Assembly: GCA_964607145.1 (NCBI GenBank)
Contig: CAZSIX010000002.1
Location: 139,989 to 203,988 of the forward strand
Direction of reading: 5' to 3'
Length of the DNA: 64,000 bases
Source: an uncultured Planctomycetota bacterium
Lineage (GTDB): Bacteria; Planctomycetota; JAJSAM01; JAKLKS01
Below are positions 15,614 through 60,617 of this stretch, in pieces (the stretch's first letter is position 1; the number at the start of each line of letters is the position of its first letter). The translations under genes and the position numbers were made by a program. A model generated the notes under the pieces. The model ran no database searches. It was not told where the DNA came from and was given only the letters and a program-made list of their open reading frames with translations.

Positions 15614-15807
15614 CGGGGGGAGGATACACCAGCCCCGGGGAGACCCCCTCCTCGCGCGCCCGCCTTGCCCCGCCCGGAGGGAAGAGATAGCCTTGACGCC
15701 GTGTTGATGCGTGAAGGTCCCGGGGGGGCGTGCCGGGGGACGGCGCGATCCGTCCCGGGAATCGCGGTCGAGCGTCCGCAGCGCGGGCGCGGGGGAGGCG
15801 GCAGGAC

Positions 15808-16053
15808 ATGAGCGGCAAGAAGGGGTTCCTGGTGTTCGCGGCGGTGGCGGGTCTGCTCTCGGCGGGGGCGGTCGGGTGCGCCTCCAAGGGCGATCACCAC
15901 GGCGAGAAGAAGGACGACTCGAAGATGGAGAAGAACTCCTGCAAGGGCGGCGGCAAGTGCAAGGAGGGCGGGAAGTGCAAGTCCGGCGGACAGTGCAAGG
16001 AAGGCGGCAAGTGCAAGGCCGGCGGCGGCTGCGGCAAGAACTCCTGCGGCTAG
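15808..16053 (+). CDS. Small secreted/lipoprotein Cys-rich repeat peptide (GG[KQ]CK repeats); candidate RiPP precursor for the adjacent MNIO
   Basis: MSGKKGFLVFAAVAGLLSAGAVGCAS (signal peptide, lipobox) then KGDHHGEKKDDSKMEKNSCKGGGKCKEGGKCKSGGQCKEGGKCKAGGGCGKNSCG; GGAGG RBS 9 nt upstream of ATG 15808; located 57 nt before the DUF692 gene. Confidence 0.75.
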   Translation: MSGKKGFLVFAAVAGLLSAGAVGCASKGDHHGEKKDDSKMEKNSCKGGGKCKEGGKCKSGGQCKEGGKCKAGGGCGKNSCG

Positions 16054-16110
16054 ACGATCCCACGGCATGACCGGGACGCCGGGGGCCCCGCCTCCGGCGT
16101 CCCTCCCGCC

Positions 16111-16965
16111 ATGATCGCCAACCGATTCGGCCTCCCGGACCTCGGGTTCGGCGTGGGGCTCCGCCCGACGCACTACGCCCACGTCCTCTCGACGTGGCCG
16201 GCGGTGGACTTCTTCGAGATCATCTCGGAGAACTACATGGACCAGGGGGGGCGGCCGCGGGAGGCGCTGGAGGCGGTGGCCGCGCGCTACCCCGTCGTCA
16301 TGCACGGCGTGTCGCTGTCCATCGGGTCCACGGATCCCCTGGACATGGACTACCTCCGCCGCCTGCGGGCGCTGGCGGATCGCATCGACGCGCCCTGGCT
16401 GAGCGACCACCTCTGCTGGACCGGCGTGGCGGGGGAGAACCTCCACGACCTGATGCCCGTGCCCCGGACCGAAGAGGCGGTGCGCCACATCCGCGACCGG
16501 GTGCGGCGCGTCCAGGACTTCCTCGGGCGGCCGCTCCTGCTGGAGAACCCCTCCTCGTACATGGGCTTCGCCGCCGACGCCATGCCCGAGGCGGAGTTCC
16601 TGGCCCGCATCGCCGAGGGCGCCGACTGCGCCCTCCTGCTGGACGTGAACAATGTCCACGTGAGCGCGCGGAACCACGGGTTCGACCCGGAGGCGTACAT
16701 CCGCACGCTCCCCCTGGACCGCGTCGTGCAGTTCCACCTCGCCGGCCACGAGGACCACGGGGCGTACATCATCGACACGCACGACGCGCACGTCGTGGAC
16801 GCCGTGTGGGACCTCTTCCGGCGCACCTGGGCGCTGACGGGGCCCCGCGCGACGCTGGTGGAGTGGGACGACCACATCCCGCCCTTCGAGGTCGTGCACG
16901 CGGAGGCGGAGCGCGCCCGCGCGGAGGCGGCGGCGTCCCCGGCGGAGGGCGCCGTTGCCCGGTAG
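16111..16965 (+). CDS. DUF692 family protein (multinuclear non-heme iron oxidative enzyme, MbnB/TglH/BufB-like)
   Basis: 284 aa; [42 protein letters not shown] motifs typical of DUF692/MNIO TIM-barrel proteins. Confidence 0.9.
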
Positions 16966-17770
16966 GGAGGGGCGCGACGGGGCCCTCGACGGGCTGGAGC
17001 GCTGGGTGCGGGACGTCGTGACCGCGCCCGCGGACCCCGACGGCGCGGAGGCGGGGCGCGTCCTCGCCCCCCTCCCGGGCCTCCCCCCGGCGGAGCAGTT
17101 GCGGATCTACCGGGACGGCTGGTTCTCGCGGCTCCGCTCGGCGCTGGCGGAGGACTTCCCGGGCCTCGAGCACGCCCTCGGCCACCACGGGTTCGACCAC
17201 CTCTGCGCCGACTACCTGCGCGCCCACCCGTCCTCGTACACCGACATCTGCCGCGTGGGCGTGGACATGGAGCGGTTCGTGCGGTCCCGGACGGACCTCG
17301 CCGACGTCGGGTTCCTCGCCGACCTGGCGCGACTGGAGTGGTCCGTCACGTCGGTCTTCGACCGCGCCGACGGCCCGGTGCTGCGGGTCGCCGATCTCGA
17401 GGGGACGGACACGGAGACGCTCGCCGCCGCCCGCTTCCCCCTGGCGTCCACCACGGACCTCCTGGACCTGGGGTACCCGGTGCACGAGTACCTGGAGGCC
17501 GTCCTCGCCGAGGGGTCGCCGGCGGTTCCCGCGCCGCGGCCCTGCACCGTCGTCGTCTCCCGCGCCGGGACCGCCATGAGCCGGATGGAGGTCGCCGGCC
17601 CCCTCGTCCCCGTGCTGCGGGCGCTGGCGGAGGGCGCGTCGCTGGAGGAGGCGGTCGGCACCGCCGCGGAGTGCGCGGAGGACGACGCGGCGCTGGAAGC
17701 CCTGGCGGTGGCGATGCGGGACGGGTTCGCGCGCTGGGTCGGGGCGGGCGTGTTCGCGCCGACGGGGTAG
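16955..17770 (+). CDS. DUF2063 family protein (MbnC/BufC-like partner of the MNIO)
   Basis: 271 aa; overlaps the DUF692 gene by 11 nt; N-terminal region typical of DUF2063 (LQRWV-like, [19 protein letters not shown]). Confidence 0.8.
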
Positions 17771-19421: not shown

Positions 19422-21590
19422 TCAGAACTCGAGGGTGAGGGTCAGGACGAGGCCCCGGCCGGCGCCGTTGACCCCCGACCCGTGGAAGCGGTAGTCCCGG
19501 TTGAGGACGTTCTCCACGGCCAGGTCGAGGCGCGCCGCCGCCCCCAGGCGGAGCCCCCCGCGGATGTGGAGAACGCCGAAGCCGGGGGTCCCTCCGTCCG
19601 GGATGCGCGTGTCGGCGGCGTCGGCGGACGAGAGCCGGTCCTGCCCGTCGGCGGCGACGAACACCGCCTCGATGTACCAGCGGCGCTCCGTGCCCGACTC
19701 GTGGCGGAGCCACAGGGCCCCGAAGGTCGGCGGGATCTTCGAGAGCGGCTCGCCGGTGTCGCGGTGGGTGCCCCGGGTGAAGGTGATGTTGCCGCCGGTG
19801 CTGAAGCCGCCTCCGAGCAGCACGCGGAGGTCCGCTTCGAGTCCGTCGATGCGGGCCGTGCCGACGTTCCCGCGCGTGGTGTACGCCCGCCCCGAGCCGT
19901 CGGTGGCGGCGCCGCCGTAGGTCGTGGGGACCCGGTCGATGAGGTCGCGGAGGTGGGAGCGGTACCACGTGACGCCGCCGGAAACGCGATCCCGCTCCGC
20001 GCGCAGACCCATCTCCCATTGCGTGAGCGTCTCCGGATCGAGATCGCGGGCGGGCACGTCGAAGGAGGTGGAGGTGACCTGGAAGACGGTCAGGTCCTCC
20101 ACGTTGGGGGCGCGGAAGCCGCGGGAGATCCCGGTGTAGGCGCGGAAGCCGCCGCCGAGATCCCCGTGGAGGTGCGCGGCGCCGGTGACGTCGGAGAACG
20201 ACTCGGAGAAGTCCGCCAGGGGCGTGGCGTCGGAGGGATCGGGATCCACGTCCCGCGCGTCGATGCGGAAGCGGCTGGCCCGCACCCCCGCCACGGCGCG
20301 CAGGCGATCCGTGAGCCGGGCCTCGTCCTGCACGTACGCCCCCGCCGACGTGTAGGTCGCGGAGCCCGCGAAGGTCCCCCGGTCGAAGTCCGTGCGCGCG
20401 CCCGTCGTCACGTCCGTCCTCACGCGGTCGCTGGAGACGGAGTCGCGGTACCACTCGAGGCCCCAGGAGATCCGGTGCGCCTCGTGCGGGACGGTGGTGG
20501 CGCGCACCACGACCCCCGGCGTCGTCACGTCGTCGTTGGTGCGGTCCAGGTTGTCGCTGCCCGTGCGCCGCTCGAAGCGGCGCTCCGTCTGGCGGTGCAG
20601 GCTGACGGTGGTCTCCACCGCGCGCAGCAGGTCGGAACTCCCCTCCGCGCGGAGGGTCGCCGCGACGAGGTCCCGCTCCTGCTCCTCGATGCGCCAGACC
20701 GCGTTGCGCGTGCTGCCCGTTCCCCGCCAGCCGGTCACGAGGAACTGGGGGCGACGGACTCCCTCCTGCCGGACGTGCTGGGCCACGAGGTCGAGGGACC
20801 GCCCCTCTCCCAGGGCGAGGCGCGCCGCCATGTCGCCGTCGGTCTCGTCGTACCCCGTGAAGGGCTGCGTGTCCACGTGACGCCCGCCGCGGAGATCGCC
20901 GAAGGCGCCGATGCTCCCGCCGGCGAGCAGGCCGAGACCGGTGCTCCGCACGTTCCCCTCGATGCGGAGCCGCTCCGAGTCCTCGGCGGTGGCGTCCCGG
21001 TACGCGAGGCGCCCGCCCGCCGTGGCCGCGCCCTCCGCCAGCGGCTCCGCGCGCCGCGTGAGGACGCGCACGACGCCGCCTAGGGCGTCGCTCCCGTAGA
21101 GCACCGACGACGGGCCGCGGACCACCTCGATGCGTTCCACGGTCTCGACGTCCACCGTGGCCAGGTACTGGTTGGGGCCGCCCCGGTAGGTGGAGTTGTT
21201 GAGGCGCACGTCGTCGATCATGAGCAGCGTCTGCTTGCCGATGAGCCCGCGGAGGATGGGGGAGCCCTGCCCGTGGGTGGTCTTCTGGACGAAGATCCCG
21301 ACCTCCTCCAGCAGCGCCTCGGGGACGTTGCGGGACTGCCGATCGAGGATCTCCCGGCGGTCCACCACGGTCACGGCGAAGGGAACGTCGCCGACGGCGG
21401 CGCGCGTGGAGGTGGCGGTGACCTGGACCTCCGGGACCAGCGCCGCCTCGGGCTCCGGGGGCGGCGGATCCTCCGCCGGCGAAGGGGCGGGGAGGGGCGG
21501 TGGCGCGTCCTGGGCCAGGCCCGCGGGCGGGTCCGCCGCGAGGGCGGCGGCGGCGAGGAACAGGGGCAGGACGGGGCGGCGTCGATGCAT
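19422..21590 (-). CDS. TonB-dependent outer-membrane receptor
   Basis: 722 aa; signal peptide, plug domain (LLMIDDVRLN...RIEVVRGPSSVLYGSDALGGVV), C-terminal beta-barrel ending in aromatic residue (LTLEF). Confidence 0.9.
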   Translation of the reverse strand: MHRRRPVLPLFLAAAALAADPPAGLAQDAPPPLPAPSPAEDPPPPEPEAALVPEVQVTATSTRAAVGDVPFAVTVVDRREILDRQSRNVPEALLEEVGIFVQKTTHGQGSPILRGLIGKQTLLMIDDVRLNNSTYRGGPNQYLATVDVETVERIEVVRGPSSVLYGSDALGGVVRVLTRRAEPLAEGAATAGGRLAYRDATAEDSERLRIEGNVRSTGLGLLAGGSIGAFGDLRGGRHVDTQPFTGYDETDGDMAARLALGEGRSLDLVAQHVRQEGVRRPQFLVTGWRGTGSTRNAVWRIEEQERDLVAATLRAEGSSDLLRAVETTVSLHRQTERRFERRTGSDNLDRTNDDVTTPGVVVRATTVPHEAHRISWGLEWYRDSVSSDRVRTDVTTGARTDFDRGTFAGSATYTSAGAYVQDEARLTDRLRAVAGVRASRFRIDARDVDPDPSDATPLADFSESFSDVTGAAHLHGDLGGGFRAYTGISRGFRAPNVEDLTVFQVTSTSFDVPARDLDPETLTQWEMGLRAERDRVSGGVTWYRSHLRDLIDRVPTTYGGAATDGSGRAYTTRGNVGTARIDGLEADLRVLLGGGFSTGGNITFTRGTHRDTGEPLSKIPPTFGALWLRHESGTERRWYIEAVFVAADGQDRLSSADAADTRIPDGGTPGFGVLHIRGGLRLGAAARLDLAVENVLNRDYRFHGSGVNGAGRGLVLTLTLEF

Positions 21591-21722
21591 GGGCGGCCTC
21601 CGGGGACGGGAGTCGCCCCGCGGATCGCAATCCGCGGGCCGGTCACGTCCGCCGGGGCGACGGGCCCGTCGCCGCCGGCCCCTGTCGCCGAATCCGCCGC
21701 CCGTGGCGCGGGGCTGTCGGGG

Positions 21723-25025: not shown

Positions 25026-25976
25026 CTAGGCCAGCGCGGCGACCTTCGCCTCGTACTCGGCCTGGGAGATCTTCCCGGCCTTGAGGTCGGCGTTGAGCGC
25101 CTCGATCTTCGCCTTGTCGGCCTTCTTCTTCGCCTCGATGGCGGCCTTGTCCGACTCGTAGGCCTTCTTGCCCTCCGCCTCGGCGGACTTGAAGACCGAC
25201 TTCAGCGTGTCCATGTCGGCCTTGCCGCCGGAACCGAAGTAGTTGTCCGCCATCCGCCCGATGGCCCACGTGGCGGCGTAGGAGGTCACCGCTCCCACGG
25301 CGCTGCCCCAGCCGGGGACGAGCTTCACCACGTTGGTGACCGCGATGCGGGCCCCCGTGCCGACGCCCACGCCCAGCAGCAGGCTCTTGGCGGCTTCCTT
25401 CGTCACGTGGTGGCCGTGGTACTGGCCGATGTCCCGGATGAGCTTGATCTGGATGCCCACGACGGCGAGGTCCGTGGCGATGGCGACGCCGGGGATGGGG
25501 AAGGCGCCGAGGATGGCGCTGAAGATGGCGTACTTCCGCGTGTCCTCGGTGATCTCCTTCGCCCGCTGCGCGGCGTCGTGGATGGCGTGGATGTCGCTCG
25601 GCAGCACCGTGTCCTTCGCCTCGGAGAACACGCGGCCGAGGAGATTGGAGTGCTCGACGGGGATGCCCAGGCCGGAGCGGATGCGCTCCAGGAGCGCCTT
25701 CTCCTCGGGGGTGGCCTTTCCGTCGGCGTTCACCATCCCGTAGGCGGCGTTGTAGACCCCCTGCTTCGCGTCGGGGGTGGCCACGGACTTCAACTGGGCG
25801 TCCAGGTCGCCGGGGGCGTCGATGAGCGAGTTGATGGTCGTCCCGGCGGGCAGCTTCACTCCCTCGAGGGCGGCGGCGATGGCGGCGCGCTCCTCCGGGG
25901 CGATGGTCCCGTCGGCCTTCGCGACGTGGACGAGGATGCGGACCGTGGCGAGCGCCTCTTCCTGCGGGTTCGGCAT
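25026..25976 (-). CDS. TerB-like N-terminal domain plus a possibly membrane-associated C-terminal domain (DUF697-like guess)
   Basis: MPNPQEEALATVRILVHVAKADGTIAPEERAAIAAAL (TerB-like); middle hydrophobic FPIPGVAIATDLAVVGIQIKLI; Lys/Ala/Glu-rich tail. AGGAGG RBS. Confidence 0.7.
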   Translation of the reverse strand: MPNPQEEALATVRILVHVAKADGTIAPEERAAIAAALEGVKLPAGTTINSLIDAPGDLDAQLKSVATPDAKQGVYNAAYGMVNADGKATPEEKALLERIRSGLGIPVEHSNLLGRVFSEAKDTVLPSDIHAIHDAAQRAKEITEDTRKYAIFSAILGAFPIPGVAIATDLAVVGIQIKLIRDIGQYHGHHVTKEAAKSLLLGVGVGTGARIAVTNVVKLVPGWGSAVGAVTSYAATWAIGRMADNYFGSGGKADMDTLKSVFKSAEAEGKKAYESDKAAIEAKKKADKAKIEALNADLKAGKISQAEYEAKVAALA

Positions 25977-26252
25977 GGCTGACCTCCTTCGTGTGATCGG
26001 GTGTTCCCGGACCGCCCGGTGGCGGCCCCGGCCTCGCGCGCCCTTCCCGTGGGTCCCGCGCGGGGGGGACCAGCATACCCCGCGAGCCGCGGGAATCGAA
26101 CGGCACCGCGGCCCCCCAATCCGTCGCCCCCGGGTAAAGTGCAAGCGACTTGACCCCGGGCCGGTCACCCCGACCCCCATGCGGCACCTCCCGCACTCCT
26201 GTTCTCGGTTGACGGATCCTCCGAACCATCCCAGACTCGACCGGCGATCTCC

Positions 26253-28940
26253 ATGTGGATGAACAGCAAGGTTCCCGCCGGTGCGTTCCGACCCGAGGCG
26301 CTCCTCGTCCACCGCGAGTGGATCGAGCGAGCGGCTCGTGCACTGGTCCATGGAGAGACCGAAGCGGAAGATCTCAGCCAGCAGGCGTGGCTCAAGGTCC
26401 TCCAGCATCCCCCGCCCTCGACGCCGGAGCGTCCTCGAGGCTGGTTCCGTTCGGTGCTCCGATTCACGGCGCTCGACCGGGCGCGGGCCGAGCGACGCCG
26501 GCGCAGGCACGAGACGGCCGCCTCCAACCGGGAGGCGGTGGAATCCACCCCTGAGAGCGTCCTCGCTCGCGCCGAGTCCCTCGACAGGGTGGCCCATGCC
26601 GTCTTCGCGCTGGAGGAGCCCTACCGCACCGCGGTGCTCCTCAGGTACTTCGAGGGGCTCGACCCCCGGGCCATCGCGGCCCGTCAGGGAGTTCCGCTGG
26701 AGACCGTGAGGACGCGCCTCAAGCGCGCCCTCGCCCTGCTTCGGGAAGGCCTGGAAGAGAGGAGCGGGGGCGAACGGGGGGCCTGGGCGCTCGCGCTCGT
26801 GCCCCTCCTTCGGGAGGCACCGGCGACTTCGACCGCCACCGTCGCAGGACCCGGAGCCGCCCTGGCGGCGGGGGGAGTTCTCATGGGGAAGAAGACGGTT
26901 GCCCTGCTCTTGGTGGCGCTACTCGCTGGTGGGGCCTGGTGGGGCCTCCGGACAGTCGAGCCTCTCGAAGTCGGCTCGGCTCTCCCCGGGACCGGAGGTG
27001 GTCCCGTCCCGCAGGTCCCTTCCCTGCCGATCTCGGCTCCCCCCTCCCCGCCGCCGACCGCGCCCCCTCCCTCCCGTCCTGCCCCGGCGGCCACGGGGCA
27101 GGTGACGGATCGCGAAGGCCACCCCATCCCTGGAGCCCGCGTCCTCTCGTTCCCCGATGACCTCCCGGTCCCGCTCGATCCCGCCTCCGTCCGGGGGGAG
27201 CAGGGGCCGGGGCGAGTCTCGATGGCTGACGCCGATGGACGTTTCTCCGTGACCCTCGCAGGCACGTCCCCCCTCTTCTCCATCCGCGCGGAGGCCGAAG
27301 GCTACGGACCGACATGGGCGTCCGGCGTACGACCCGGAAGCGATGTGGCTCTCACGCTCGATGGACCCGGCACGATCGTCGGGAGCGTGACCGACACCCG
27401 GGGCGACCCCGTGCCCGGGGCCGTGGTCCGCGTCGCCACTCTCGTGGATCTCACCCGGACGGCCAGGGAGACCACGACCGGCGCCGACGGCGCCTACCGG
27501 CTGACCGGAGTGCCCACGGCCCCCGGACTCTACTCCCTCGAAGTCTCGGCCCCTGGCCTGGCGACGGCACTGAGGGTGCTTCCGGAGACTCCCCGACCGG
27601 GGGAAGAGATCCGCTACGACGTCATCCTGGCCCGCTGGTGTGTCCTGCGGGGCCGCGTGCTCGATGGCAGGACGAACGAGCCCGTTCCCGGGGCCCGGGT
27701 GGTCCTTTGCGCCACCGCATGCACGGGAGGCGGAGGCTGGACCTCGAGCACCGGGAGCGGGGGCCGCCGGACCGACAACCCCGACGCCTGGAAGGCGCTG
27801 GGAGAGGCGACGACGGGAGCCGGCGGCAGCTACCGCATCGACCGCCTTCTCCCCGGCGGCATGAACCCCTGGCTCTCCGTGTACGCAGGGGCCCTCAAGG
27901 ACGGTTGGACTACCCAGCTCCTCCAGGTGACCCTCACCAACGCAGGCGAGGAGGCGGAACTCGATCTCCGCCTCTGGCCCGCGGCGACGATCGAGGGGCG
28001 AGTGTTCGAAGGCGAGCAGCCCGCCTCCGGGGTCACCGTGAGTGCCTCCATTGCCGGGACCGAGACCGCCTCCTGGTTTCCCTCCATGTACGGTGAAGTT
28101 CCCCTCTGGTGGAGCACGACCGACGGGGAGGGCCGATACCGCCTCCAGGGAGTCCCCGTCCCCGGACAGGGACCTGCAACCGCCGAGGTGAGGGCCTACT
28201 CGCGGAGCATGATGTTCCAGGTGGGCGGGAAGGCGGAACCCGCGGCCCGGGCGGAGATCGAGGTCCTTGCAGCGAAGACGACTTCCGTCCCCGACCTCGT
28301 CATGCCCGCGTTCCGCCCCGCCGCGGTGGACGTCGTGGTGGTCGATCGGGAGGGCCGCCCCATCGGCGGGGCGGAGTTCGTTGCGCCGGGATGCCCCACC
28401 AACCCCCGGACCGACGCGTCGGGGCGGGCCCGGCTTCTCTGGCCACCCGGCGATTCCCCCTCGCCTGCTCGCCCTGTCATCGTCCGGGCCCGTGGTTTCG
28501 GCCCGGAGGCGGTAGCGGTAGTGCCCGACGAAGCGGACCCGCCAGTCGTCCGTGTCGTCCTCGGACGTGGCCACACGCTGAAGGGGAGAGTCCTCGGAGC
28601 CGGCCCTGAACACAACGACCGTGTCCTGGTCCAGGTCGCCAATGGCCACCTGGCTCCCGAGGAGGCCTTCCGCCGGGCGATGGAGAGCTCCGGCGGCACC
28701 GCCACGATCCCGTCCTTCCCGCCGCTACGGGTGTACGCCTCCCTCGCTCCGGACAAGGACGGCCGCTTCCGCGTCGAGGACCTCCCCGATGGTCCGTGGT
28801 ACCTGAGGGCGGTCGCCTACCTCCCGGAGGATCCTGCGGAAGGGCTCCCCTCCCGCACCCGCGAGTCGCCCCTCGTCACAGCAGGACCCGAATCCGGGGA
28901 GGTCGTCATCGAGATCCCAGCCGATCCCACGCCGAAGTAG
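26253..28940 (+). CDS. ECF sigma-70 factor fused in one ORF to a transmembrane segment and a large periplasmic carboxypeptidase-regulatory-like beta-sandwich region
   Basis: N-terminus: sigma-70 region 2/4 (EDLSQQAWLKVLQ..., LEEPYRTAVLLRYFEGLDPRAIAARQGVPLETVRTRLKRAL). Then TM helix KKTVALLLVALLAGGAWWGL. Then repeated DxxGxPIPGARV / TDGEGRYRL-type modules. No stop between the domains. Confidence 0.75.
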   Translation: MWMNSKVPAGAFRPEALLVHREWIERAARALVHGETEAEDLSQQAWLKVLQHPPPSTPERPRGWFRSVLRFTALDRARAERRRRRHETAASNREAVESTPESVLARAESLDRVAHAVFALEEPYRTAVLLRYFEGLDPRAIAARQGVPLETVRTRLKRALALLREGLEERSGGERGAWALALVPLLREAPATSTATVAGPGAALAAGGVLMGKKTVALLLVALLAGGAWWGLRTVEPLEVGSALPGTGGGPVPQVPSLPISAPPSPPPTAPPPSRPAPAATGQVTDREGHPIPGARVLSFPDDLPVPLDPASVRGEQGPGRVSMADADGRFSVTLAGTSPLFSIRAEAEGYGPTWASGVRPGSDVALTLDGPGTIVGSVTDTRGDPVPGAVVRVATLVDLTRTARETTTGADGAYRLTGVPTAPGLYSLEVSAPGLATALRVLPETPRPGEEIRYDVILARWCVLRGRVLDGRTNEPVPGARVVLCATACTGGGGWTSSTGSGGRRTDNPDAWKALGEATTGAGGSYRIDRLLPGGMNPWLSVYAGALKDGWTTQLLQVTLTNAGEEAELDLRLWPAATIEGRVFEGEQPASGVTVSASIAGTETASWFPSMYGEVPLWWSTTDGEGRYRLQGVPVPGQGPATAEVRAYSRSMMFQVGGKAEPAARAEIEVLAAKTTSVPDLVMPAFRPAAVDVVVVDREGRPIGGAEFVAPGCPTNPRTDASGRARLLWPPGDSPSPARPVIVRARGFGPEAVAVVPDEADPPVVRVVLGRGHTLKGRVLGAGPEHNDRVLVQVANGHLAPEEAFRRAMESSGGTATIPSFPPLRVYASLAPDKDGRFRVEDLPDGPWYLRAVAYLPEDPAEGLPSRTRESPLVTAGPESGEVVIEIPADPTPK

Positions 28941-46841: not shown

Positions 46842-47834
46842 ATGCGCATCGCGTCCGTGCTCGCCCTCGCCGCCGCTCTGGGCGCCATCCCGGCCCTCGC
46901 CGCCCCGCCCACGGGGGCCCTGGGCCCGCTCCGCGTCGAGGTCTTTGATCGGCTGGGCGTCCTGTCGCCGCTCGCGCCGCGGAAGGAGCGCCGCGCGCTG
47001 GAGAGGGCCCGGGCGGTGCTGCTCCTCCCCGCGGAGGACGTGGTGGCGGAACTGAAGTTCGCGGCGAAGGTGACGAAGGTCCTCTCCCGCGCGTTCCCCG
47101 GCGACGCCGTGCTCGACCCCATCCAGGAGTCGGCCGTCGCCACGCTGGGGGCTGTCGTGTTCACCGAGCGGGACGCGCTCGCCGCGGCGGCGGGCTCGCT
47201 ACCCTCCGCGGGTGCGGAGCGCGCGCTGGGGAAGGCGGTCGCGTCCGCCGACCGGCGCCTCGGAGGCCTGGAGGGGAAGCCGGTCTGGACGCGTGCGGCG
47301 CTGCTGGCGAGGACCTGCGCCGGCGTGGAGCGCACCGCGGAGCGGCTGGGGGTGGATCTCGACGAGCCGGAGCCCGAACCGCCGGTGGCGGACTTCTCCC
47401 TGGAGGACGTCAACCCGAACTCGCCGACCTCGGCCTCGTCCGTCTCGCCGCGGCAGCACATCGGCGCGGTCTCCGTCTGGTACTTCGGGCACTCCACCTG
47501 AAGCTACTGCCGGGCCCAGTTCCGGGCCCTCGACGGGATGCAGCAGGAGATCCTCGCCGACGAGCCCGGCTCGACCACGCGCATCCTCGGCATCAACGCC
47601 GCCGGCCACGAGTCGGCGAACGGGCTCGCCACCGCCGACGTGACGCTCCCGTGGCTCCAGGACACGCCGGCGGCGGACGCGTGGGGGCTCTGGGACGCGA
47701 CCTGGCGGGACGTCGTCGTCCTCGACGCCGAGAACCGCGTGGTGGCGGTCTACAACCTCACGAGCAACGATCTCGGCCAGCCCGCCAACTACGAGGCGCT
47801 CCTGGCGCTCATCCGCGGCGCCGAGGCGGAGTAG
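46842..47834 (+). CDS. TlpA/ResA-like periplasmic thioredoxin-fold oxidoreductase interrupted by an in-frame TGA (47499-47501) at the first position of the redox motif (T-[TGA]-S-Y-C); candidate selenoprotein or else a disrupted gene
   Basis: ORFs 46770..47501 and 47538..47834 are in the same frame with no other stop between them. Joined sequence ...PVADFSLEDVNPNSPTSASSVSPRQHIGAVSVWYFGHST[U]SYCRAQFRALDGMQQEILADEPGSTTRILGINAAGHE...VVVLDAENRVVAVYNL aligns as one thioredoxin domain with U-x-x-C. 6-bp hairpin GGGCCC-AGUUCC-GGGCCC starts 11 nt after the TGA. Confidence 0.55.
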
Positions 47835-50475: not shown

Positions 50476-51621
50476 TCAACCGCGGCGGAGGATCTCCGCG
50501 GCGCGCACGAGGCTCTCCAGTTTGCGGCGCGCGCCGTCGGCGTCATTGACGGGCCTGTCGGCGAACGTCCCGAAGCCGCAGTCGGGGTTGAGCATCACGC
50601 GTCCGGGGCCGAGGATCTCCGCGGCGCGGCGGGCCCGCGCGGCCACCGCATGGGGGTCCTCGATCTCCTCCGTGCGCGGGTTGACGGCGCCGAGGCCGAG
50701 CATGGCCGCCGGCGGGAGCCCGGCGAGCACTTCCAGCGAGCCCGCGCGCGGTGTCGCGTACTCCAGCGCGAAGAAGCCCACGCGCATCCGGGCGAGCCAC
50801 GGGAGCAGCGGGTCGTAGTCGCCCTCCAGCAGCACCTCGTCCTTGCGGCTCCAGTTGCCGCGGCAGACGTGGATGCCGAAGCGGGTCCCCTGGATGCCCT
50901 CCACCACCCGGTTGAGAAGGTCCACGGCGAGGTCGAGTTCCCCCTCGGGACTGGCCTTGGCGGCCAGGGCGGCGCACATGAACGTGCGCGTGGCGGACTT
51001 CCCCGCGAACACGACCTCCGTAAGGACCGGCTCGTCGAACTGCACGAACTCCACGCCTTCCGCGGCCAGCGCCATGGCCTCCGCCCGGAGTAGGGCGACG
51101 ATGGCCTCGTTCAGCGCGGCCCGCGACGGGTAGGCCCCCTCGGACAGCCCCTTCACCCACGTGGATCGGGAGAGGAGGTAGGGGCCCGGCAGCGTCGCCT
51201 TGACGGGACGCTTCGTGTGGCGGCGGAGGAAGCGGACGTCGTCCAGGACGAGCGGGGCGCGGGCGCGGAGCGGGCCCGTCACGGTGGGGTTCTTGAGGGC
51301 GAACGCGGGCACGTCGAGGGCGGAGAGCATGGCCTCGAAGCCGGCCTTGTCCTCGACGAAGTCCAGGAGGTCCGCCATGGTCATCAGCCGGAGCCCCTCC
51401 ACCCGCTCGCACAGGAACGAGTAGAAGTTGTCCCGGCGCTGCTCGCCGTCGGTGACCACGTCGACGCCGGCGTCCTCCTGGTGGCGGAGGGAGAGCAGCA
51501 CCGCCTCGTCCCGCAGCGCCTCCAGATCGGGCGACCGGCGCCGCGTCGCCTCCAGCAGGGCCGGGGGGCGGGGCCAGGAGCCCACGGTCGTGACCGGGAA
51601 CGCGGGGAGCGGGTCGCTCAC
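50476..51621 (-). CDS. Short cobalamin-independent methionine-synthase-family (MetE C-terminal domain/UroD-like) methyltransferase
   Basis: GTG overlaps the upstream TGA (GTGA); VTTVGSWPRP..., zinc ligands GIHVCRGN and NPDCGFG; ~380 aa as in YxjG/YxjH-type proteins. Confidence 0.8.
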   Translation of the reverse strand: MSDPLPAFPVTTVGSWPRPPALLEATRRRSPDLEALRDEAVLLSLRHQEDAGVDVVTDGEQRRDNFYSFLCERVEGLRLMTMADLLDFVEDKAGFEAMLSALDVPAFALKNPTVTGPLRARAPLVLDDVRFLRRHTKRPVKATLPGPYLLSRSTWVKGLSEGAYPSRAALNEAIVALLRAEAMALAAEGVEFVQFDEPVLTEVVFAGKSATRTFMCAALAAKASPEGELDLAVDLLNRVVEGIQGTRFGIHVCRGNWSRKDEVLLEGDYDPLLPWLARMRVGFFALEYATPRAGSLEVLAGLPPAAMLGLGAVNPRTEEIEDPHAVAARARRAAEILGPGRVMLNPDCGFGTFADRPVNDADGARRKLESLVRAAEILRRG

Positions 51622-52364
51622 GGAACCTTCATCCCGATGCGGACCGCGGTCCCGTCCATCAGCGTCCGCGCCACGGGGGAGCGGCGCACCGTCTCCTCCC
51701 ACAGGGCGCGCAGCGCGTCCTCGTCCCCGTCGGCGTCCACCCACGCGGTCCCCTCGATGGCCTCCAGGGCCGGGGTTCCCTCGTCCTCCACCGCGAGGAA
51801 CACGAGCAGGTTCGACGACTTCGCCCGCAGGGACACCTCCACGTTCCGCACGGCGATGCCGCGCCGGGAGGCGCGCCACTGGAATCCGACGGCGAGGCAG
51901 CCTCCCAGGGACGCCAGCAGCAGTTCCACGGCGCTGGGAGCGGGGTCGGCGGTGTCCAGGGACGCCGGCTGGCCCACGGGGACGGCGTGGTTGCGCGCGA
52001 ACGCCCGCCCCTCCATGCCGCCGGTCCACCGGGTCCGGACGGACCAGGAGAACCCGCGCGCCGTCGCCAGGTCGGCGTCCAGCGACTCGTCCCTCGCCCC
52101 CGCCTTCCGCAGGAACCAGGACGTGCTGCCGCCGTCCCCGGGGCGCACCGCGTCGATCCCGTGCCCGACCATGCGGCACCAGGCGGGAAGATCCTCGCGC
52201 ACGCTCACTTCGCGGCTCCGGACCTCCAGCACGCCGCGGGGCGGGACGCGCCGCATGGCGTCCCGGATGATCAGAAGGAGTCCGCTGCCGCAGTCGAGGT
52301 CCCCGCCGTCGCAGACTCCGTCCGCGGCGGGTGCCGGGACGGCATCGGTTCCGCCGTCGGCCAT
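51618..52364 (-). CDS. TusA-like sulfurtransferase domain fused to an OsmC-like domain
   Basis: N-terminus DGGDLDCGSGLLLIIRDAMRRVPPRGVLEV (TusA-like); C-terminus ELLLASLGGCLAVGF...(OsmC/Ohr-like). Confidence 0.7.
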   Translation of the reverse strand: MADGGTDAVPAPAADGVCDGGDLDCGSGLLLIIRDAMRRVPPRGVLEVRSREVSVREDLPAWCRMVGHGIDAVRPGDGGSTSWFLRKAGARDESLDADLATARGFSWSVRTRWTGGMEGRAFARNHAVPVGQPASLDTADPAPSAVELLLASLGGCLAVGFQWRASRRGIAVRNVEVSLRAKSSNLLVFLAVEDEGTPALEAIEGTAWVDADGDEDALRALWEETVRRSPVARTLMDGTAVRIGMKVP

Positions 52365-52368
52365 TTCG

Positions 52369-52731
52369 CTAGTACGTCACGCAGGGCGATCCGCCGGAGA
52401 GGAACTCCACCAGTTTCGCGCCGCCCACGATGGCGGCCCCGTCCACCAGGCGGGCCTCGTCGAGCCCCCGCTTCTTGAAGCAGGGGGAGCAGACGAGGAT
52501 CTTCCCGCCGGCGCCGTGGAAGGACTTCATGAGGTCGCGCAGCGCGGCGAACCCCTCCTCGTGGACGTCGTCCGCGTAGCCCTTCTGGCACAGGCGCACG
52601 CCCTCGGTGCTGAGGAACACGATGGTCTCCTTCTCCGAGGCGGCGGCGGCGTTGGCGATGACGAAGGCGACCGTGGCGCGGTCCGTGTTGTCCTTCGCGC
52701 AGGTGAGGCTCACGCAGAATCGTCCGGCCAT
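52369..52731 (-). CDS. DsrE/DsrF-family sulfur-relay protein
   Basis: 120 aa; FVIANAA...ILVCSPCFKKRGL pattern of the DsrE/YchN family with conserved Cys. Confidence 0.75.
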   Translation of the reverse strand: MAGRFCVSLTCAKDNTDRATVAFVIANAAAASEKETIVFLSTEGVRLCQKGYADDVHEEGFAALRDLMKSFHGAGGKILVCSPCFKKRGLDEARLVDGAAIVGGAKLVEFLSGGSPCVTY

Positions 52732-52734
52732 GGG

Positions 52735-52989
52735 TCAATCCTCCTTCCGACGGATCCTGTAGACGGGGTGCCGCTCGTCGACGAGGGCGTGCCCCGTGAG
52801 CCCGCACCACGCGGGGATGTCCAGCACGGCGCCGGGGTCCGTCGCCGTCACGACGAGGACGTCACCGGGTCGCATCTCCGCGAGCCTCCCGCGGAGCGCC
52901 ATGACCAGATCGCCGCAGCCCAGGTCCCCGGCGTCGTAGGGAACCTCGGTGGACGCGGCCGGTCCGGCGGGGGTCTTCGCGGGGCTCAC
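52735..52989 (-). CDS. TusA-family sulfurtransferase-like small protein
   Basis: 84 aa; YDAGDLGCGDLVMALRGRLAEMRPGDVLVV (TusA fold, Cys in the CPxP position). Confidence 0.75.
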   Translation of the reverse strand: MSPAKTPAGPAASTEVPYDAGDLGCGDLVMALRGRLAEMRPGDVLVVTATDPGAVLDIPAWCGLTGHALVDERHPVYRIRRKED

Positions 52990-59731: not shown

Positions 59732-59883
59732 TTGAATGTATTGATGTGACGAATGTCATGAAACATGAAATCGGGCTTGACGTCCGCGGCAAATCTGGTT
59801 GAATCGTGGTACGGGAAGCACCGGGCTTCCCGTTGGACGTTGCGGACGAGGGGGCTTGGCCCCCCACGACGGGAGGGACGAGA
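59732..59883 (+). promoter_or_regulatory. AT-rich promoter-like region and structured 5' leader upstream of the TGA-interrupted ORF
   Basis: Local GC drop; TTGATTGAATG / TTGATGTGA / TTGACG / TTGAATCG motifs; 8-bp hairpin CGGGAAGC-accgg-GCTTCCCG (59812-59832); GGGAGGGA RBS. Confidence 0.4.
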
Positions 59884-60564
59884 ATGCGCATGGGCAAGAT
59901 GGCGGGGCTGGTCGCGCTCGCGGCCGTGGCTTCGCTCACGTCGTACCAGGTCGATCTCAAGGCCGGCTGAGGCGTTCCGTTCGCCTGCGGAGCAGGCGTC
60001 AACACCGCGAAGATCAACTGGGACGACAACGCCGAAGTGCCGGCGGAGTCCCGCCGCGTCTCGTCCGGCAGCGCCGAGCAGGGTGGCGCCGTCGTCGAGG
60101 TGGGCGAGGACTACGACGCGGCCATCGAGGCGCTCAAGGCCAAGAAGCCCCTCCTGGTCTACTACTTCGTCGAGGGCGTCGTGGACCCGATGAACGACAA
60201 CTACACCTTCTCGCGGAAGTTCGAGATGGGTGTGCTCGGCATCTCCAAGGTGGTGGACTTCCTGAACAAGGAGTTCGTCTGCCGGAAGATCGCCCTGCCC
60301 GCCGAGGCCGACATGAAGGTGGCGAAGAACCAGGCGCGCATCGAGATCTACGGCGCCACGAACACCCTCATCGGGACCATCGGTCGCGACGCCGACGGCC
60401 TGCTGAACTCGGCGCCGTTCACGGCCTTCGCCAAGGTACGCATCGCCAAGAGCGACTCCCTCGCCAAGAAAGAGATCGCGCGCCTCGAGAAGGAGAAGGC
60501 CGAGGCCGCCCGTCGCGAGAAGGACGCTCCCGCTGCCGAGACCGAGGTCGCCGACGCCCGGTAG
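59884..60564 (+). CDS. Secreted protein whose ORF is interrupted by an in-frame TGA (59968-59970) between the signal peptide and the body; possible recoding or disrupted gene
   Basis: ATG 59884 with GGGAGGGA RBS: MRMGKMAGLVALAAVASLTSYQVDLKAG-[TGA]-GVPFACGAGVNTAKINWDDNAEVPAESRR... The body runs in the same frame to 60564 and has no signal peptide of its own (track ORF 60037..60564 starts at an internal GTG). Hairpins lie 1-30 nt after the TGA. Confidence 0.4.
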
Positions 60565-60592: not shown

Positions 60593-60617
60593 GGGCGGGG
60601 CCGAGAGGCCCCGCCCG
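60593..60617 (+). terminator. Intrinsic-terminator-like hairpin after 59884..60564 gene
   Basis: GGGCGGGGCC-gagag-GGCCCCGCCC followed by GTTCGATTCG. Confidence 0.5.

What the first reader, a model, noticed from the sequence alone, without database searches (positions are those of the whole stretch)
59884..60564. Second in-frame TGA-interrupted ORF: signal peptide, then TGA, then domain lacking its own signal
ATG 59884 has a good RBS and encodes a 28-residue signal-peptide-like segment ending in TGA 59968-59970. The same frame continues without further stops into a 198-residue protein-like body (GVPFACGAGVNTAKINWDDN...KPLLVYYFVEGVVDPMNDNYTF...). Codon usage stays gene-like across the junction. 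The track's 60037 GTG start would leave the body without a signal peptide and the 28-aa ORF without a function. Hairpins follow the TGA at 59982..59998 (CGCCUG-cggag-CAGGCG) and immediately after it (GGCG-uuccguu-CGCC). Possible Sec recoding (U then C six residues later), programmed read-through, or a recent nonsense mutation. This is the second such case in 64 kb, which raises the prior that the organism recodes UGA.
Basis: partly seen in the sequence, partly recalled or inferred. Interest (0 to 1): 0.6.

Follow-up and report, generated by a model that had tools for sequence, protein, structure and literature searches.

The report
Unannotated exported selenoprotein with conserved UGA
The "stop" codon at 59968 is almost certainly read as selenocysteine, so the annotated 175-residue protein is really a 226-residue exported protein with selenium near its front end, from a family that matches no Pfam or NCBIfam model.

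Summary
ATG 59884 follows a GGGAGGG ribosome-binding site. It opens a frame that is interrupted only by TGA 59968-70 and runs to TAG 60562-4, with gene-like GC3 throughout.

The TGA is not a recent mutation. All 14 related loci recovered (13 distinct, down to about 30% protein identity) carry TGA at the same column. It sits inside a conserved motif, [A/G]G-TGA-G-x-P-F-A-C-G-A-G...INWD. Eight full-length homologs have a cysteine at or next to that position.

A hairpin, GCCUGC-GGW-GCAGGC, starts 12 nt after UGA. It meets the published bacterial SECIS consensus and puts G22-G23 in the same register as E. coli fdhF. Synonymous-site constraint holds it in place (rare GCA/UCA codon in 12 of 12 loci), and there is one compensatory G:C to U:A change.

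The window's other case, TGA 47499, belongs to the curated selenoprotein family NF053656. TGA also ends about half of the ordinary genes, so the code is not reassigned.

The body models as a thioredoxin-like fold without CxxC. It matches no Pfam or NCBIfam model.

Verdict: a real selenocysteine codon in a selenoprotein family that appears undescribed. The 60037 GTG start is a mis-annotation. The Sec machinery genes could not be checked.

The parts
59871..59877 (+). Shine-Dalgarno-like GGGAGGG, 6 nt before ATG 59884
   Evidence: Read directly. A GGAGG-type motif lies at the same place before the signal-peptide ATG wherever upstream sequence is held (11 of the 12 other loci listed; L016 is cut at the contig end). 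No such motif precedes the annotated GTG 60037.
59884..60564 (+). Full coding sequence of the proposed 226-residue selenoprotein, including the Sec codon and the TAG stop
   Evidence: The frame is open apart from TGA 59968. GC3 is continuous. The protein is conserved end to end in orthologs.
59884..59967 (+). Signal-peptide-like N-terminus: basic n-region MRMGK, hydrophobic core AGLVALAAVA, an A-x-A|S site, then a short segment ending KAG
   Evidence: The same architecture appears in all orthologs, with ALAS conserved. No signal-peptide predictor was available, so export is inferred.
59968..59970 (+). In-frame TGA, proposed selenocysteine codon (residue 29)
   Evidence: TGA sits at this column in 14 of 14 Sec-type loci. 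Cys occupies the aligned column in P0016, and in the same DAG-C context in P0124-P0126 and P0129.
59971..59999 (+). Conserved motif G-V-P-F-A-C-G-A-G with the only invariant Cys (C35), giving U-x5-C
   Evidence: The columns are invariant. The body Cys133 is not conserved.
59982..59998 (+). SECIS-like hairpin CGCCUGC-GGA-GCAGGCG. The stem starts 11-12 nt after UGA, and loop G22 G23 A24 is counted from the U of UGA.
   Evidence: Seen. Rare GCA/UCA codon in 12 of 12 loci, against 1.7% GCA elsewhere. One compensatory G:C to U:A change in L016. Same register as the E. coli fdhF loop G22 G23 U24 (fdhF sequence verified).
60001..60027 (+). Conserved segment NTAKINWDD, modelled with high confidence next to the folded domain
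   Evidence: Invariant T41, K43, W46 and D47. The pLDDT block for residues 41-50 is 91.
60037..60039 (+). GTG used as the start in the public annotation (175-aa product P0001); judged a mis-annotation
   Evidence: P0001 is the 175-aa product from this GTG. The starts called in orthologs fall at different, non-homologous places.
60106..60408 (+). Thioredoxin-like fold domain (residues about 75-175) lacking CxxC; the equivalent site is D-P-x-[ND]-x-N-Y-x-F-S-R-x-F-E
   Evidence: AlphaFold model with pLDDT 95-98 in this region. Foldseek PDB top hits are DsbH 2ju5, DsbD-gamma 1uc7 and AGR2/3, with E about 1e-3. No Pfam or NCBIfam hit.
60409..60555 (+). Long Lys/Glu-rich C-terminal helix (residues 176-224)
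   Evidence: Helix H176-224.
60593..60616 (+). GC-rich inverted repeat GGGCGGGGCC-GAGA-GGCCCCGCCC, 29 nt after the stop; possible transcript end
   Evidence: Read directly. The terminator scan does not call it, because there is no T-run.
46842..47834 (+). Second selenoprotein gene of the window: TGA 47499-47501 in WYFGHST-U-SYCR, with hairpin GGGCCC-AGUUCC-GGGCCC at 47512-47529
   Evidence: NF053656 'TUGYCR motif thioredoxin fold (seleno)protein', 202.7 bits against a cutoff of 100. Homologs have CxxC at the same place. Hairpin.

Best explanation
**Proposed mechanism.** TGA 59968 is a selenocysteine codon. Translation starts at ATG 59884. A SelB/Sec-tRNA complex recruited by the hairpin 12 nt downstream inserts Sec at residue 29. 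The ribosome then continues to TAG 60562 and makes one 226-residue protein.

**Proposed protein.**
- It is probably exported by its N-terminal signal peptide.
- It carries a glycine-rich arm, AG-U-G-x-P-F-A-C-G-A-G, in which Sec29 and Cys35 can form a selenylsulfide or bind a soft metal.
- The arm is tethered through the conserved INWD segment and a variable linker to a thioredoxin-fold domain. That domain has lost its own CxxC and ends in a long charged helix.

**Shown:** conservation of the UGA and its flanks, Cys homologs, the constrained hairpin, and the fold.

**Inferred:** Sec insertion itself, export, and the redox or metal-binding role.
For: 1. **Conserved TGA.** TGA sits at the same alignment column in the window and in 13 further loci (12 distinct), at 30-55% protein identity and 60-74% GC. 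Both flanks are conserved at the protein level.
2. **Cys homologs.** Eight full-length homologs (P0014, P0016, P0124-P0129) have Cys at or next to that position: 'DAG-C-G(G)C-GGxC(P/A)C-GAG' against 'DAG-U-GPPFACGAG'.
3. **The hairpin fits the SECIS consensus.** GCCUGC-GGW-GCAGGC satisfies every criterion of the published bacterial SECIS consensus: loop of 3-9 nt, stem of at least 4 bp, G in the first two loop positions, 16-37 nt spacing, and energy of -7.5 kcal/mol or lower (criteria quoted from PMC13188914). Eleven of 14 loci pass.
4. **Synonymous constraint.** The codon supplying the A of the U:A pair is GCA or UCA in 12 of 12 loci. Elsewhere in these genes GCA is 6 of 353 Ala codons, and A-ending codons are 2.9% overall. 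Other invariant four-fold residues vary freely at the third position.
5. **Covariation.** L016 has one compensatory change, G:C to U:A: Ala to Ser on the 5' arm together with a synonymous GGC to GGA on the 3' arm.
6. **Same register as fdhF.** Loop G22 G23 occupies the same positions as in E. coli fdhF (sequence verified). Only 3 of 772 TGAs in the window match that register.
7. **Conserved start.** A conserved SD precedes the upstream ATG wherever upstream sequence is available.
8. **A second Sec gene on the same contig.** The window carries a member of the curated selenoprotein family NF053656 with TGA at its Sec position.
9. **Sec in the phylum.** The only related locus that carries a taxon label (L002/L004) is Planctomycetota. 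Complete Sec-insertion gene sets are reported in that phylum (PMC4807772).
Against: - No selA, selB, selD or tRNA-Sec lies in the 64-kb window, and the rest of the genome could not be searched.
- The hairpin is nearly invariant, so covariation support rests on a single event (31 of 500 shuffles reach it).
- The single-sequence fold is not better than shuffles (z about -0.5).
- 21% of random TGAs in this GC-rich DNA pass the loose consensus.
- Rfam has no match.
- The L008/L009 variant (U-x8-C) lacks the standard hairpin.
- The Sec-bearing arm is modelled with low confidence (pLDDT below 50), so its geometry and role are unknown.
Confidence: 0.88

Rival explanations
1. Programmed stop-codon read-through, or insertion of a standard amino acid (Trp, Cys or Arg by near-cognate tRNA) at UGA, without the Sec machinery. 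The hairpin would act only as a read-through stimulator.
For: It would also explain the conserved UGA, the conserved flanks and a conserved downstream hairpin. Sec machinery is unverified for this genome.
Against: Cys sits at or next to the homologous position in eight homologs, which is the Sec/Cys signature. The hairpin has SECIS geometry and the fdhF register. The same contig has a curated Sec-family gene with UGA at the Sec position. Conserved read-through of this kind is not an established bacterial mechanism (background knowledge).
Confidence: 0.06
2. Two separate cistrons: a 28-residue leader or micropeptide ending at TGA, and a downstream protein that starts on its own at or near the annotated GTG 60037.
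For: This is how gene callers annotated it here and in related contigs: 28-38-aa ORFs plus 140-178-aa ORFs.
Against: The 22 codons between the TGA and GTG 60037 are the most conserved part of the protein (GxPFACGAG..INWD) and stay in frame. The called starts sit at non-homologous positions and have no SD. The body would have no signal peptide. The Cys forms are single uninterrupted ORFs spanning both parts.
Confidence: 0.03
3. A pseudogene, a recent nonsense mutation or a sequencing error.
For: In a single sequence an in-frame stop looks like this.
Against: The same TGA is present in 13 distinct lineages from independent assemblies, with purifying selection on both sides.
Confidence: 0.01
4. 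Genome-wide reassignment of UGA (genetic code 4 or 25).
For: There are two in-frame TGAs within 64 kb.
Against: Thirteen of 24 long gene-like ORFs in the window end at TGA. One of these is the 47499 Sec codon; the rest include queG immediately upstream. The 74% GC content is unlike known reassigned lineages (background knowledge).
Confidence: 0.01

Closest known systems
Bacterial Sec decoding as in E. coli fdhF (UGA plus an mRNA hairpin bound by SelB)
   Same: An in-frame UGA is followed by a short GC-rich hairpin. Its apical loop carries G22 G23 (U/A)24 counted from the U of UGA, the same register as fdhF. All criteria of the bSECIS consensus are met.
   Different: The stem is a perfect 6-7 bp with a 3-nt loop and no bulged U17. 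The loop's third base is U, A, G or C in different members. SelB binding was not tested.
NF053656 'TUGYCR motif thioredoxin fold (seleno)protein' (the window's other case, TGA 47499)
   Same: Same genome. Both have a signal-peptide-bearing N-terminus, a thioredoxin-type fold, a Sec/Cys pair, and a hairpin at similar spacing.
   Different: In that family Sec sits in the canonical CxxC position of the fold (UxxC). In the target it sits on an N-terminal arm about 60 residues before the fold, as U-x5-C, and the fold's own CxxC is absent. The target does not hit NF053656.
DsbH / DsbD-gamma / AGR2-type thioredoxin-fold domains (Thioredoxin_7-like)
   Same: These are the best structural matches to the modelled body (2ju5, 1uc7, 9i3u, 3f9u). 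From background knowledge, they too are exported or ER-lumenal proteins.
   Different: The similarity is weak (E about 1e-3, TM 0.4-0.6, 10-18% identity). There is no sequence-level match to Pfam or the PDB. The CxxC active site is replaced by D-P-x-D-x-N-Y-K-F-S-R.
Flexible Gly-Cys-Sec-Gly C-terminal arm of mammalian thioredoxin reductase (background knowledge; functional analogy only)
   Same: A Sec next to glycines, with a nearby Cys, sits on a disordered arm attached to a folded redox-type scaffold.
   Different: The arm is N-terminal rather than C-terminal, the motif is U-x5-C rather than adjacent C-U, and the fold is unrelated. There is no evidence of an electron donor.
Cys-form paralogous subfamily (P0014, P0016, P0124-P0129)
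   Same: Same architecture and 32-38% identity over the whole length.
   Different: A four-Cys cluster, C-G(G)-C-GGx-C-x-C, replaces U...C. One member (P0014) lies next to MerR and a MerT/HMA/zf_CopZ gene, which hints at metal handling.

Membership tests
Bacterial selenoprotein (Sec-encoding UGA) | In-frame UGA conserved across orthologs, with protein-level conservation on both sides | tested here: met
   14 of 14 loci (13 distinct) have TGA at the same column; the flanks are KAG / GxPFACGAG.
Bacterial selenoprotein (Sec-encoding UGA) | Homologs with Cys aligned to the UGA | tested here: met
   In P0016, MAFFT aligns C to the X column. P0124-P0126 and P0129 have DAG-C in the same context, and P0125 has SAG-C. 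In P0014, P0127 and P0128 the Cys lies 1-2 residues away.
Bacterial selenoprotein (Sec-encoding UGA) | [quoted passage not shown] | tested here: met
   Window: spacing 18, 7 bp, loop GGA, -11.3 kcal/mol. Eleven of 14 loci pass and L016 reaches -7.4. Criteria are from PMC13188914. Synonymous constraint and one compensatory pair support it.
Bacterial selenoprotein (Sec-encoding UGA) | selA, selB, selC (tRNA-Sec) and selD present in the genome | not testable with these tools
Indirect support comes from the NF053656 selenoprotein gene on the same contig and the Sec trait reported in Planctomycetes.
Bacterial selenoprotein (Sec-encoding UGA) | Selenium physically present in the protein | not testable with these tools
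   This needs 75Se labelling or mass spectrometry.
Any curated selenoprotein family (the families/subfamilies tabulated in PMC13188914, which gives a Pfam, NCBIfam/TIGRFAM, CDD or PANTHER ID for each) | Sequence match to the family's HMM | tested here: not met
   No Pfam or NCBIfam hit was found for the read-through protein (with X or C at residue 29) or for the Cys forms, at permissive thresholds (E up to 10 for the X version; E up to 1 for the Cys forms and, in NCBIfam, the C version). The one exception is a chance DUF4264 match at E 0.15. CDD and PANTHER models were not searched. Table read.
Thioredoxin-fold oxidoreductases | Thioredoxin-like beta-alpha-beta / beta-beta-alpha fold | tested here: met
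   The model has pLDDT 95-98 over residues 80-210. All top Foldseek PDB hits are thioredoxin-fold proteins, with probability 0.96-1.0 but weak E-values.
Thioredoxin-fold oxidoreductases | CxxC (or UxxC / CxxU) at the N-terminus of helix 1 | tested here: not met
   That site is VVDPMNDNYTFSR, with no Cys or Sec.
Alternative genetic code (UGA reassigned) | UGA not used as a stop in ordinary genes | tested here: not met
   Thirteen of 24 long gene-like ORFs end at TGA, and queG ends at TGA 59729-31.

The most novel reading that the evidence does not exclude
This is a previously undescribed selenoprotein family of high-GC bacteria; the only related contig that carries a taxon label is Planctomycetota. 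Sec has replaced the first cysteine of a four-Cys, metal-site-like cluster. The cluster sits on a flexible N-terminal arm of an exported thioredoxin-fold domain that has no CxxC. The Sec/Cys arm, rather than the fold's classical active site, would be the working part. It could act as a periplasmic soft-metal or chalcogen ligand (one Cys-form neighbour set is MerR plus MerT/HMA) or as a selenylsulfide shuttle.
Probability: 0.45. Interest if true: 0.6.

Novelty: new member of a known kind. Interest (0 to 1): 0.5.

Why it matters
- **Annotation.** The public annotation of this gene and of nearly all its relatives is wrong. It gives truncated 120-178-residue products, with a separate 28-38-residue ORF called upstream in a few contigs. 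The family is therefore invisible to protein-based surveys.
- **Inventory.** Recognising it adds a family to the prokaryotic selenoproteome. The contigs have 60-74% GC, and the only labelled one is Planctomycetota.
- **Unusual layout.** Sec sits outside the thioredoxin fold's active site, and Cys-form relatives carry a four-Cys cluster in its place.
- **A direct experiment.** Comparing the Sec arm with the four-Cys arm should show what selenium contributes: redox activity or metal binding.
- **Genome context.** With TGA 47499, this shows the organism decodes UGA as Sec, which matters for annotating the rest of the genome.

Tried and rejected
- **Rfam.** A permissive scan of 59800-60200 gave only chance matches and no SECIS family.
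- **Pfam and NCBIfam.** Nothing for the target.
- **PDB by sequence.** A search with the family profile found nothing.
- **Public collections.** The genome-contig scan returned only one locus, a duplicate of L002. The metagenome scan returned three.
- **Single-sequence folding.** Folding energies are no better than shuffles, and the loose SECIS consensus is met by 21% of TGAs. The hairpin in one sequence therefore does not count as evidence.
GGCG...CGCC was rejected: it excludes the main hairpin and is absent from the consensus fold.
- **In-frame TGA scan.** A GC3-based scan gave many false positives from adjacent same-frame genes, such as TusA/DsrE at 52737. Only 47499 and 59968 survive inspection.
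- **Sec machinery in the window.** A motif scan and a Pfam scan of 30 window ORFs found none.
- **Terminator.** The scan found none after the gene.
- **Literature.** Searches for TUGYCR and for exported thioredoxin-like selenoproteins in Planctomycetota found nothing relevant.
- **P0034.** This protein could not be located on a contig.

Full report
**1. The observation**

- ATG 59884 lies 6 nt after GGGAGGG (59871-59877).
- Twenty-eight codons (MRMGKMAGLVALAAVASLTSYQVDLKAG) end at TGA 59968-59970.
- The frame then stays open for 197 codons to TAG 60562-60564.

The window has 74% GC. Third-position GC in this frame is 0.80-1.00 from about 59860 to the TAG, with no dip at the TGA. The public annotation starts the gene at GTG 60037 and gives a 175-residue product (P0001).

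**2. The TGA is conserved**

A protein search found only short relatives of 130-175 residues that cover the C-terminal 60% of the read-through protein. I fetched their contigs and translated upstream in frame. Every one shows the same picture: a signal-peptide-like start, then ...KAG-TGA-G-x-x-F-A-C-G-A-G-x-x-T-x-K-I-N-W-D (L001, L002 and L003; L005-L007).

An exhaustive search of representative proteins added more distant members. Their contigs also carry TGA at the same column (L008-L011; L015-L017).

In total there are 14 loci (13 distinct), with GC of 60-74% and protein identity down to about 30%. All have TGA there. The 22 codons between the TGA and the annotated start are the best-conserved part of the protein. 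A GGAGG-type ribosome-binding site precedes the upstream ATG in every locus with enough upstream sequence. This rules out a nonsense mutation, a sequencing error and a two-cistron reading.

**3. Cysteine homologs**

The only full-length members in the protein databases are eight sequences of 203-226 residues (P0014, P0016, P0124-P0129). They read ...[DSN]AG-C-G(G)-C-G-G-x-C-[PA]-C-G-[AG]-G...W-D.

With X at the TGA position, MAFFT aligns P0016's Cys to that column, and the downstream Cys35 to another Cys. P0124-P0126 and P0129 show the same DAG-C context by eye. A family in which UGA in some members aligns with Cys in others is the standard signature of selenocysteine.

**4. The RNA element**

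In 12 of the 14 loci a hairpin begins 12 nt after UGA: GCCUGC-GGN-GCAGGC in most, with small variations in L010, L015 and L016. In the window it lies at 59982-59998.

- **Consensus.** It meets all four criteria of the published bacterial SECIS consensus (criteria quoted from PMC13188914). Eleven of 14 loci pass, and L016 misses at -7.4 kcal/mol.
- **Register.** Counted from the U of UGA, the loop is G22 G23 N24, the same register as G22 G23 U24 of E. coli fdhF. I verified my recalled fdhF sequence against 5,419 E. coli genomes.
- **Chance level.** On its own the hairpin is weak evidence. 21% of all 772 TGA trinucleotides in this GC-rich window pass the loose consensus, although only 3 pass the exact register. 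Single-sequence folds are no better than shuffles.
- **Synonymous constraint.** This is what carries weight. The codon that supplies the A of the stem's U:A pair is GCA (10 loci) or UCA (2 loci) in 12 of 12. Elsewhere in these genes GCA is 6 of 353 Ala codons, and A-ending codons are 2.9%. Other invariant four-fold-degenerate residues switch freely between C and G at the third position.
- **Covariation.** L016 has a compensatory change of the outer pair, G:C to U:A. It is made by an Ala-to-Ser change on one arm and a synonymous GGC-to-GGA change on the other. This is a single event, so formal covariation support is thin (31 of 500 shuffles).
- **Exceptions.** L008 and L009 have a variant motif (U-x8-C) and a different, bulged hairpin. 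Rfam has no match.

**5. Does the organism use Sec?**

- TGA is an ordinary stop here. Thirteen of 24 long gene-like ORFs end at TGA (one is the 47499 Sec codon), including queG just upstream. The code is therefore not reassigned.
- The window has no tRNA-Sec, and I found no sel genes among 30 ORFs scanned. The rest of the genome is out of reach. This is the main gap.
- Indirect support is good. The other interrupted ORF, TGA 47499 (WYFGHST-TGA-SYCR), scores 202.7 bits (cutoff 100) against NCBIfam NF053656, 'TUGYCR motif thioredoxin fold (seleno)protein'. Its full-length homologs have CxxC at that place. Its hairpin, GGGCCC-AGUUCC-GGGCCC, starts 10 nt after UGA.
- The only related contig with a taxon label is an uncultured Planctomycetota bacterium. 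Complete Sec-insertion gene sets have been reported in several Planctomycetes (PMC4807772).

**6. What the protein is**

- **Family membership.** There is no Pfam or NCBIfam match for the Sec form, for the Sec form with C substituted, or for the Cys forms. A PDB sequence search also found nothing. The 2026 inventory of prokaryotic selenoprotein families gives each a Pfam, NCBIfam/TIGRFAM, CDD or PANTHER identifier. By the Pfam and NCBIfam tests this protein belongs to none of them.
- **Fold.** An AlphaFold model has mean pLDDT 82, and 95-98 over residues 80-210. It shows a thioredoxin-like domain followed by a 49-residue helix. The best PDB matches are DsbH, DsbD-gamma and AGR2/3, and they are weak (E about 1e-3).
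- **Active-site position.** Where thioredoxins carry CxxC, this family has the conserved D-P-x-[ND]-x-N-Y-K-F-S-R-x-F-E.
- **Cysteines.** The only invariant Cys is C35, six residues after Sec29. The Sec arm itself is modelled with low confidence. The INWD segment is confident (pLDDT 91), which suggests it docks on the domain.
- **Export.** The N-terminus has a basic n-region, a hydrophobic core and a conserved A-x-A|S site. No predictor was available, so export is inferred.

**7. Likely function (inferred)**

The protein is probably exported, with a Sec/Cys pair on a flexible Gly-rich arm held by a thioredoxin-fold scaffold. I see two candidate roles.
- **(a) Redox.** The pair forms a selenylsulfide redox couple.
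- **(b) Soft-metal or chalcogen ligand.** This is suggested by the four-Cys cluster of the Cys forms, and by one Cys-form gene lying next to MerR and a MerT/HMA/zf_CopZ gene.

The Sec forms sit in a housekeeping context (queG - X - trmB - HIT - PrcB_C), which gives no functional clue. I cannot choose between (a) and (b).

**8. Verdict**

TGA 59968 is a selenocysteine codon (confidence about 0.88). The gene runs from 59884 to 60564. The annotation from GTG 60037 is a truncation.

The recoding mechanism is the known bacterial one. The protein family appears to be undescribed, so this is a new member of a known kind. Interest is moderate. It corrects a systematic mis-annotation, adds a selenoprotein family with an unusual Sec position, and offers a natural Sec-versus-four-Cys comparison.

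Noticed in passing
window 46842-47834 (+), TGA 47499-47501: The other TGA-interrupted gene is annotated as two ORFs (P0064, 219 aa, and P0039, 98 aa). It is a member of NCBIfam NF053656, 'TUGYCR motif thioredoxin fold (seleno)protein' (202.7 bits), with Sec in a UxxC motif (T-U-S-Y-C-R). Homologs carry CxxC at the same place. A hairpin lies at 47512-47529.
   Followed up: yes
window 15715-17770 (+), with 19425-21722 (-): An MbnB/TglH/ChrH-family RiPP-modifying enzyme (E 1e-110) is followed by an overlapping DUF2063 protein and preceded by a 112-codon ORF with no family match. This looks like a methanobactin- or bufferin-type peptide-modification operon. A TonB-dependent receptor gene lies nearby.
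   Followed up: no
window 51621-52950 (-): A sulfur-relay-like cluster. A TusA-like ORF ends at TGA 52737 and is followed in the same frame by a DsrE-family gene and an OsmC-domain gene. The same-frame junction mimics an interrupted ORF, but these are two adjacent genes.
   Followed up: partly
L014 388-3127: The Cys-form homolog P0014 lies directly downstream of a MerR regulator and a 396-residue zf_CopZ/MerT/HMA protein. This hints that the family's Cys/Sec arm handles a soft metal.
   Followed up: partly
L008 460-520 and L009 423-483: A sub-branch of the family has a different post-Sec motif (U-GPPFIPLSC, that is U-x8-C). It lacks the standard hairpin and instead has a longer bulged stem-loop whose apical loop contains no G.
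   Followed up: partly
protein P0041 (homolog of the 47499 gene): This database protein reads GHAT-W-GYC, with Trp at the Sec column. Most likely a gene caller translated TGA as Trp under an alternative code table.
   Followed up: no
window 25029-26918 (-): A large protein with a TerB (tellurite-resistance) / DUF533 domain. It may be relevant to chalcogen handling in an organism that uses selenium.
   Followed up: no
window 60593-60616 (+): A perfect 10-bp GC-rich inverted repeat (GGGCGGGGCC-GAGA-GGCCCCGCCC) lies 29 nt after the selenoprotein stop codon. It has no T-run, so the terminator scan does not call it.
   Followed up: partly
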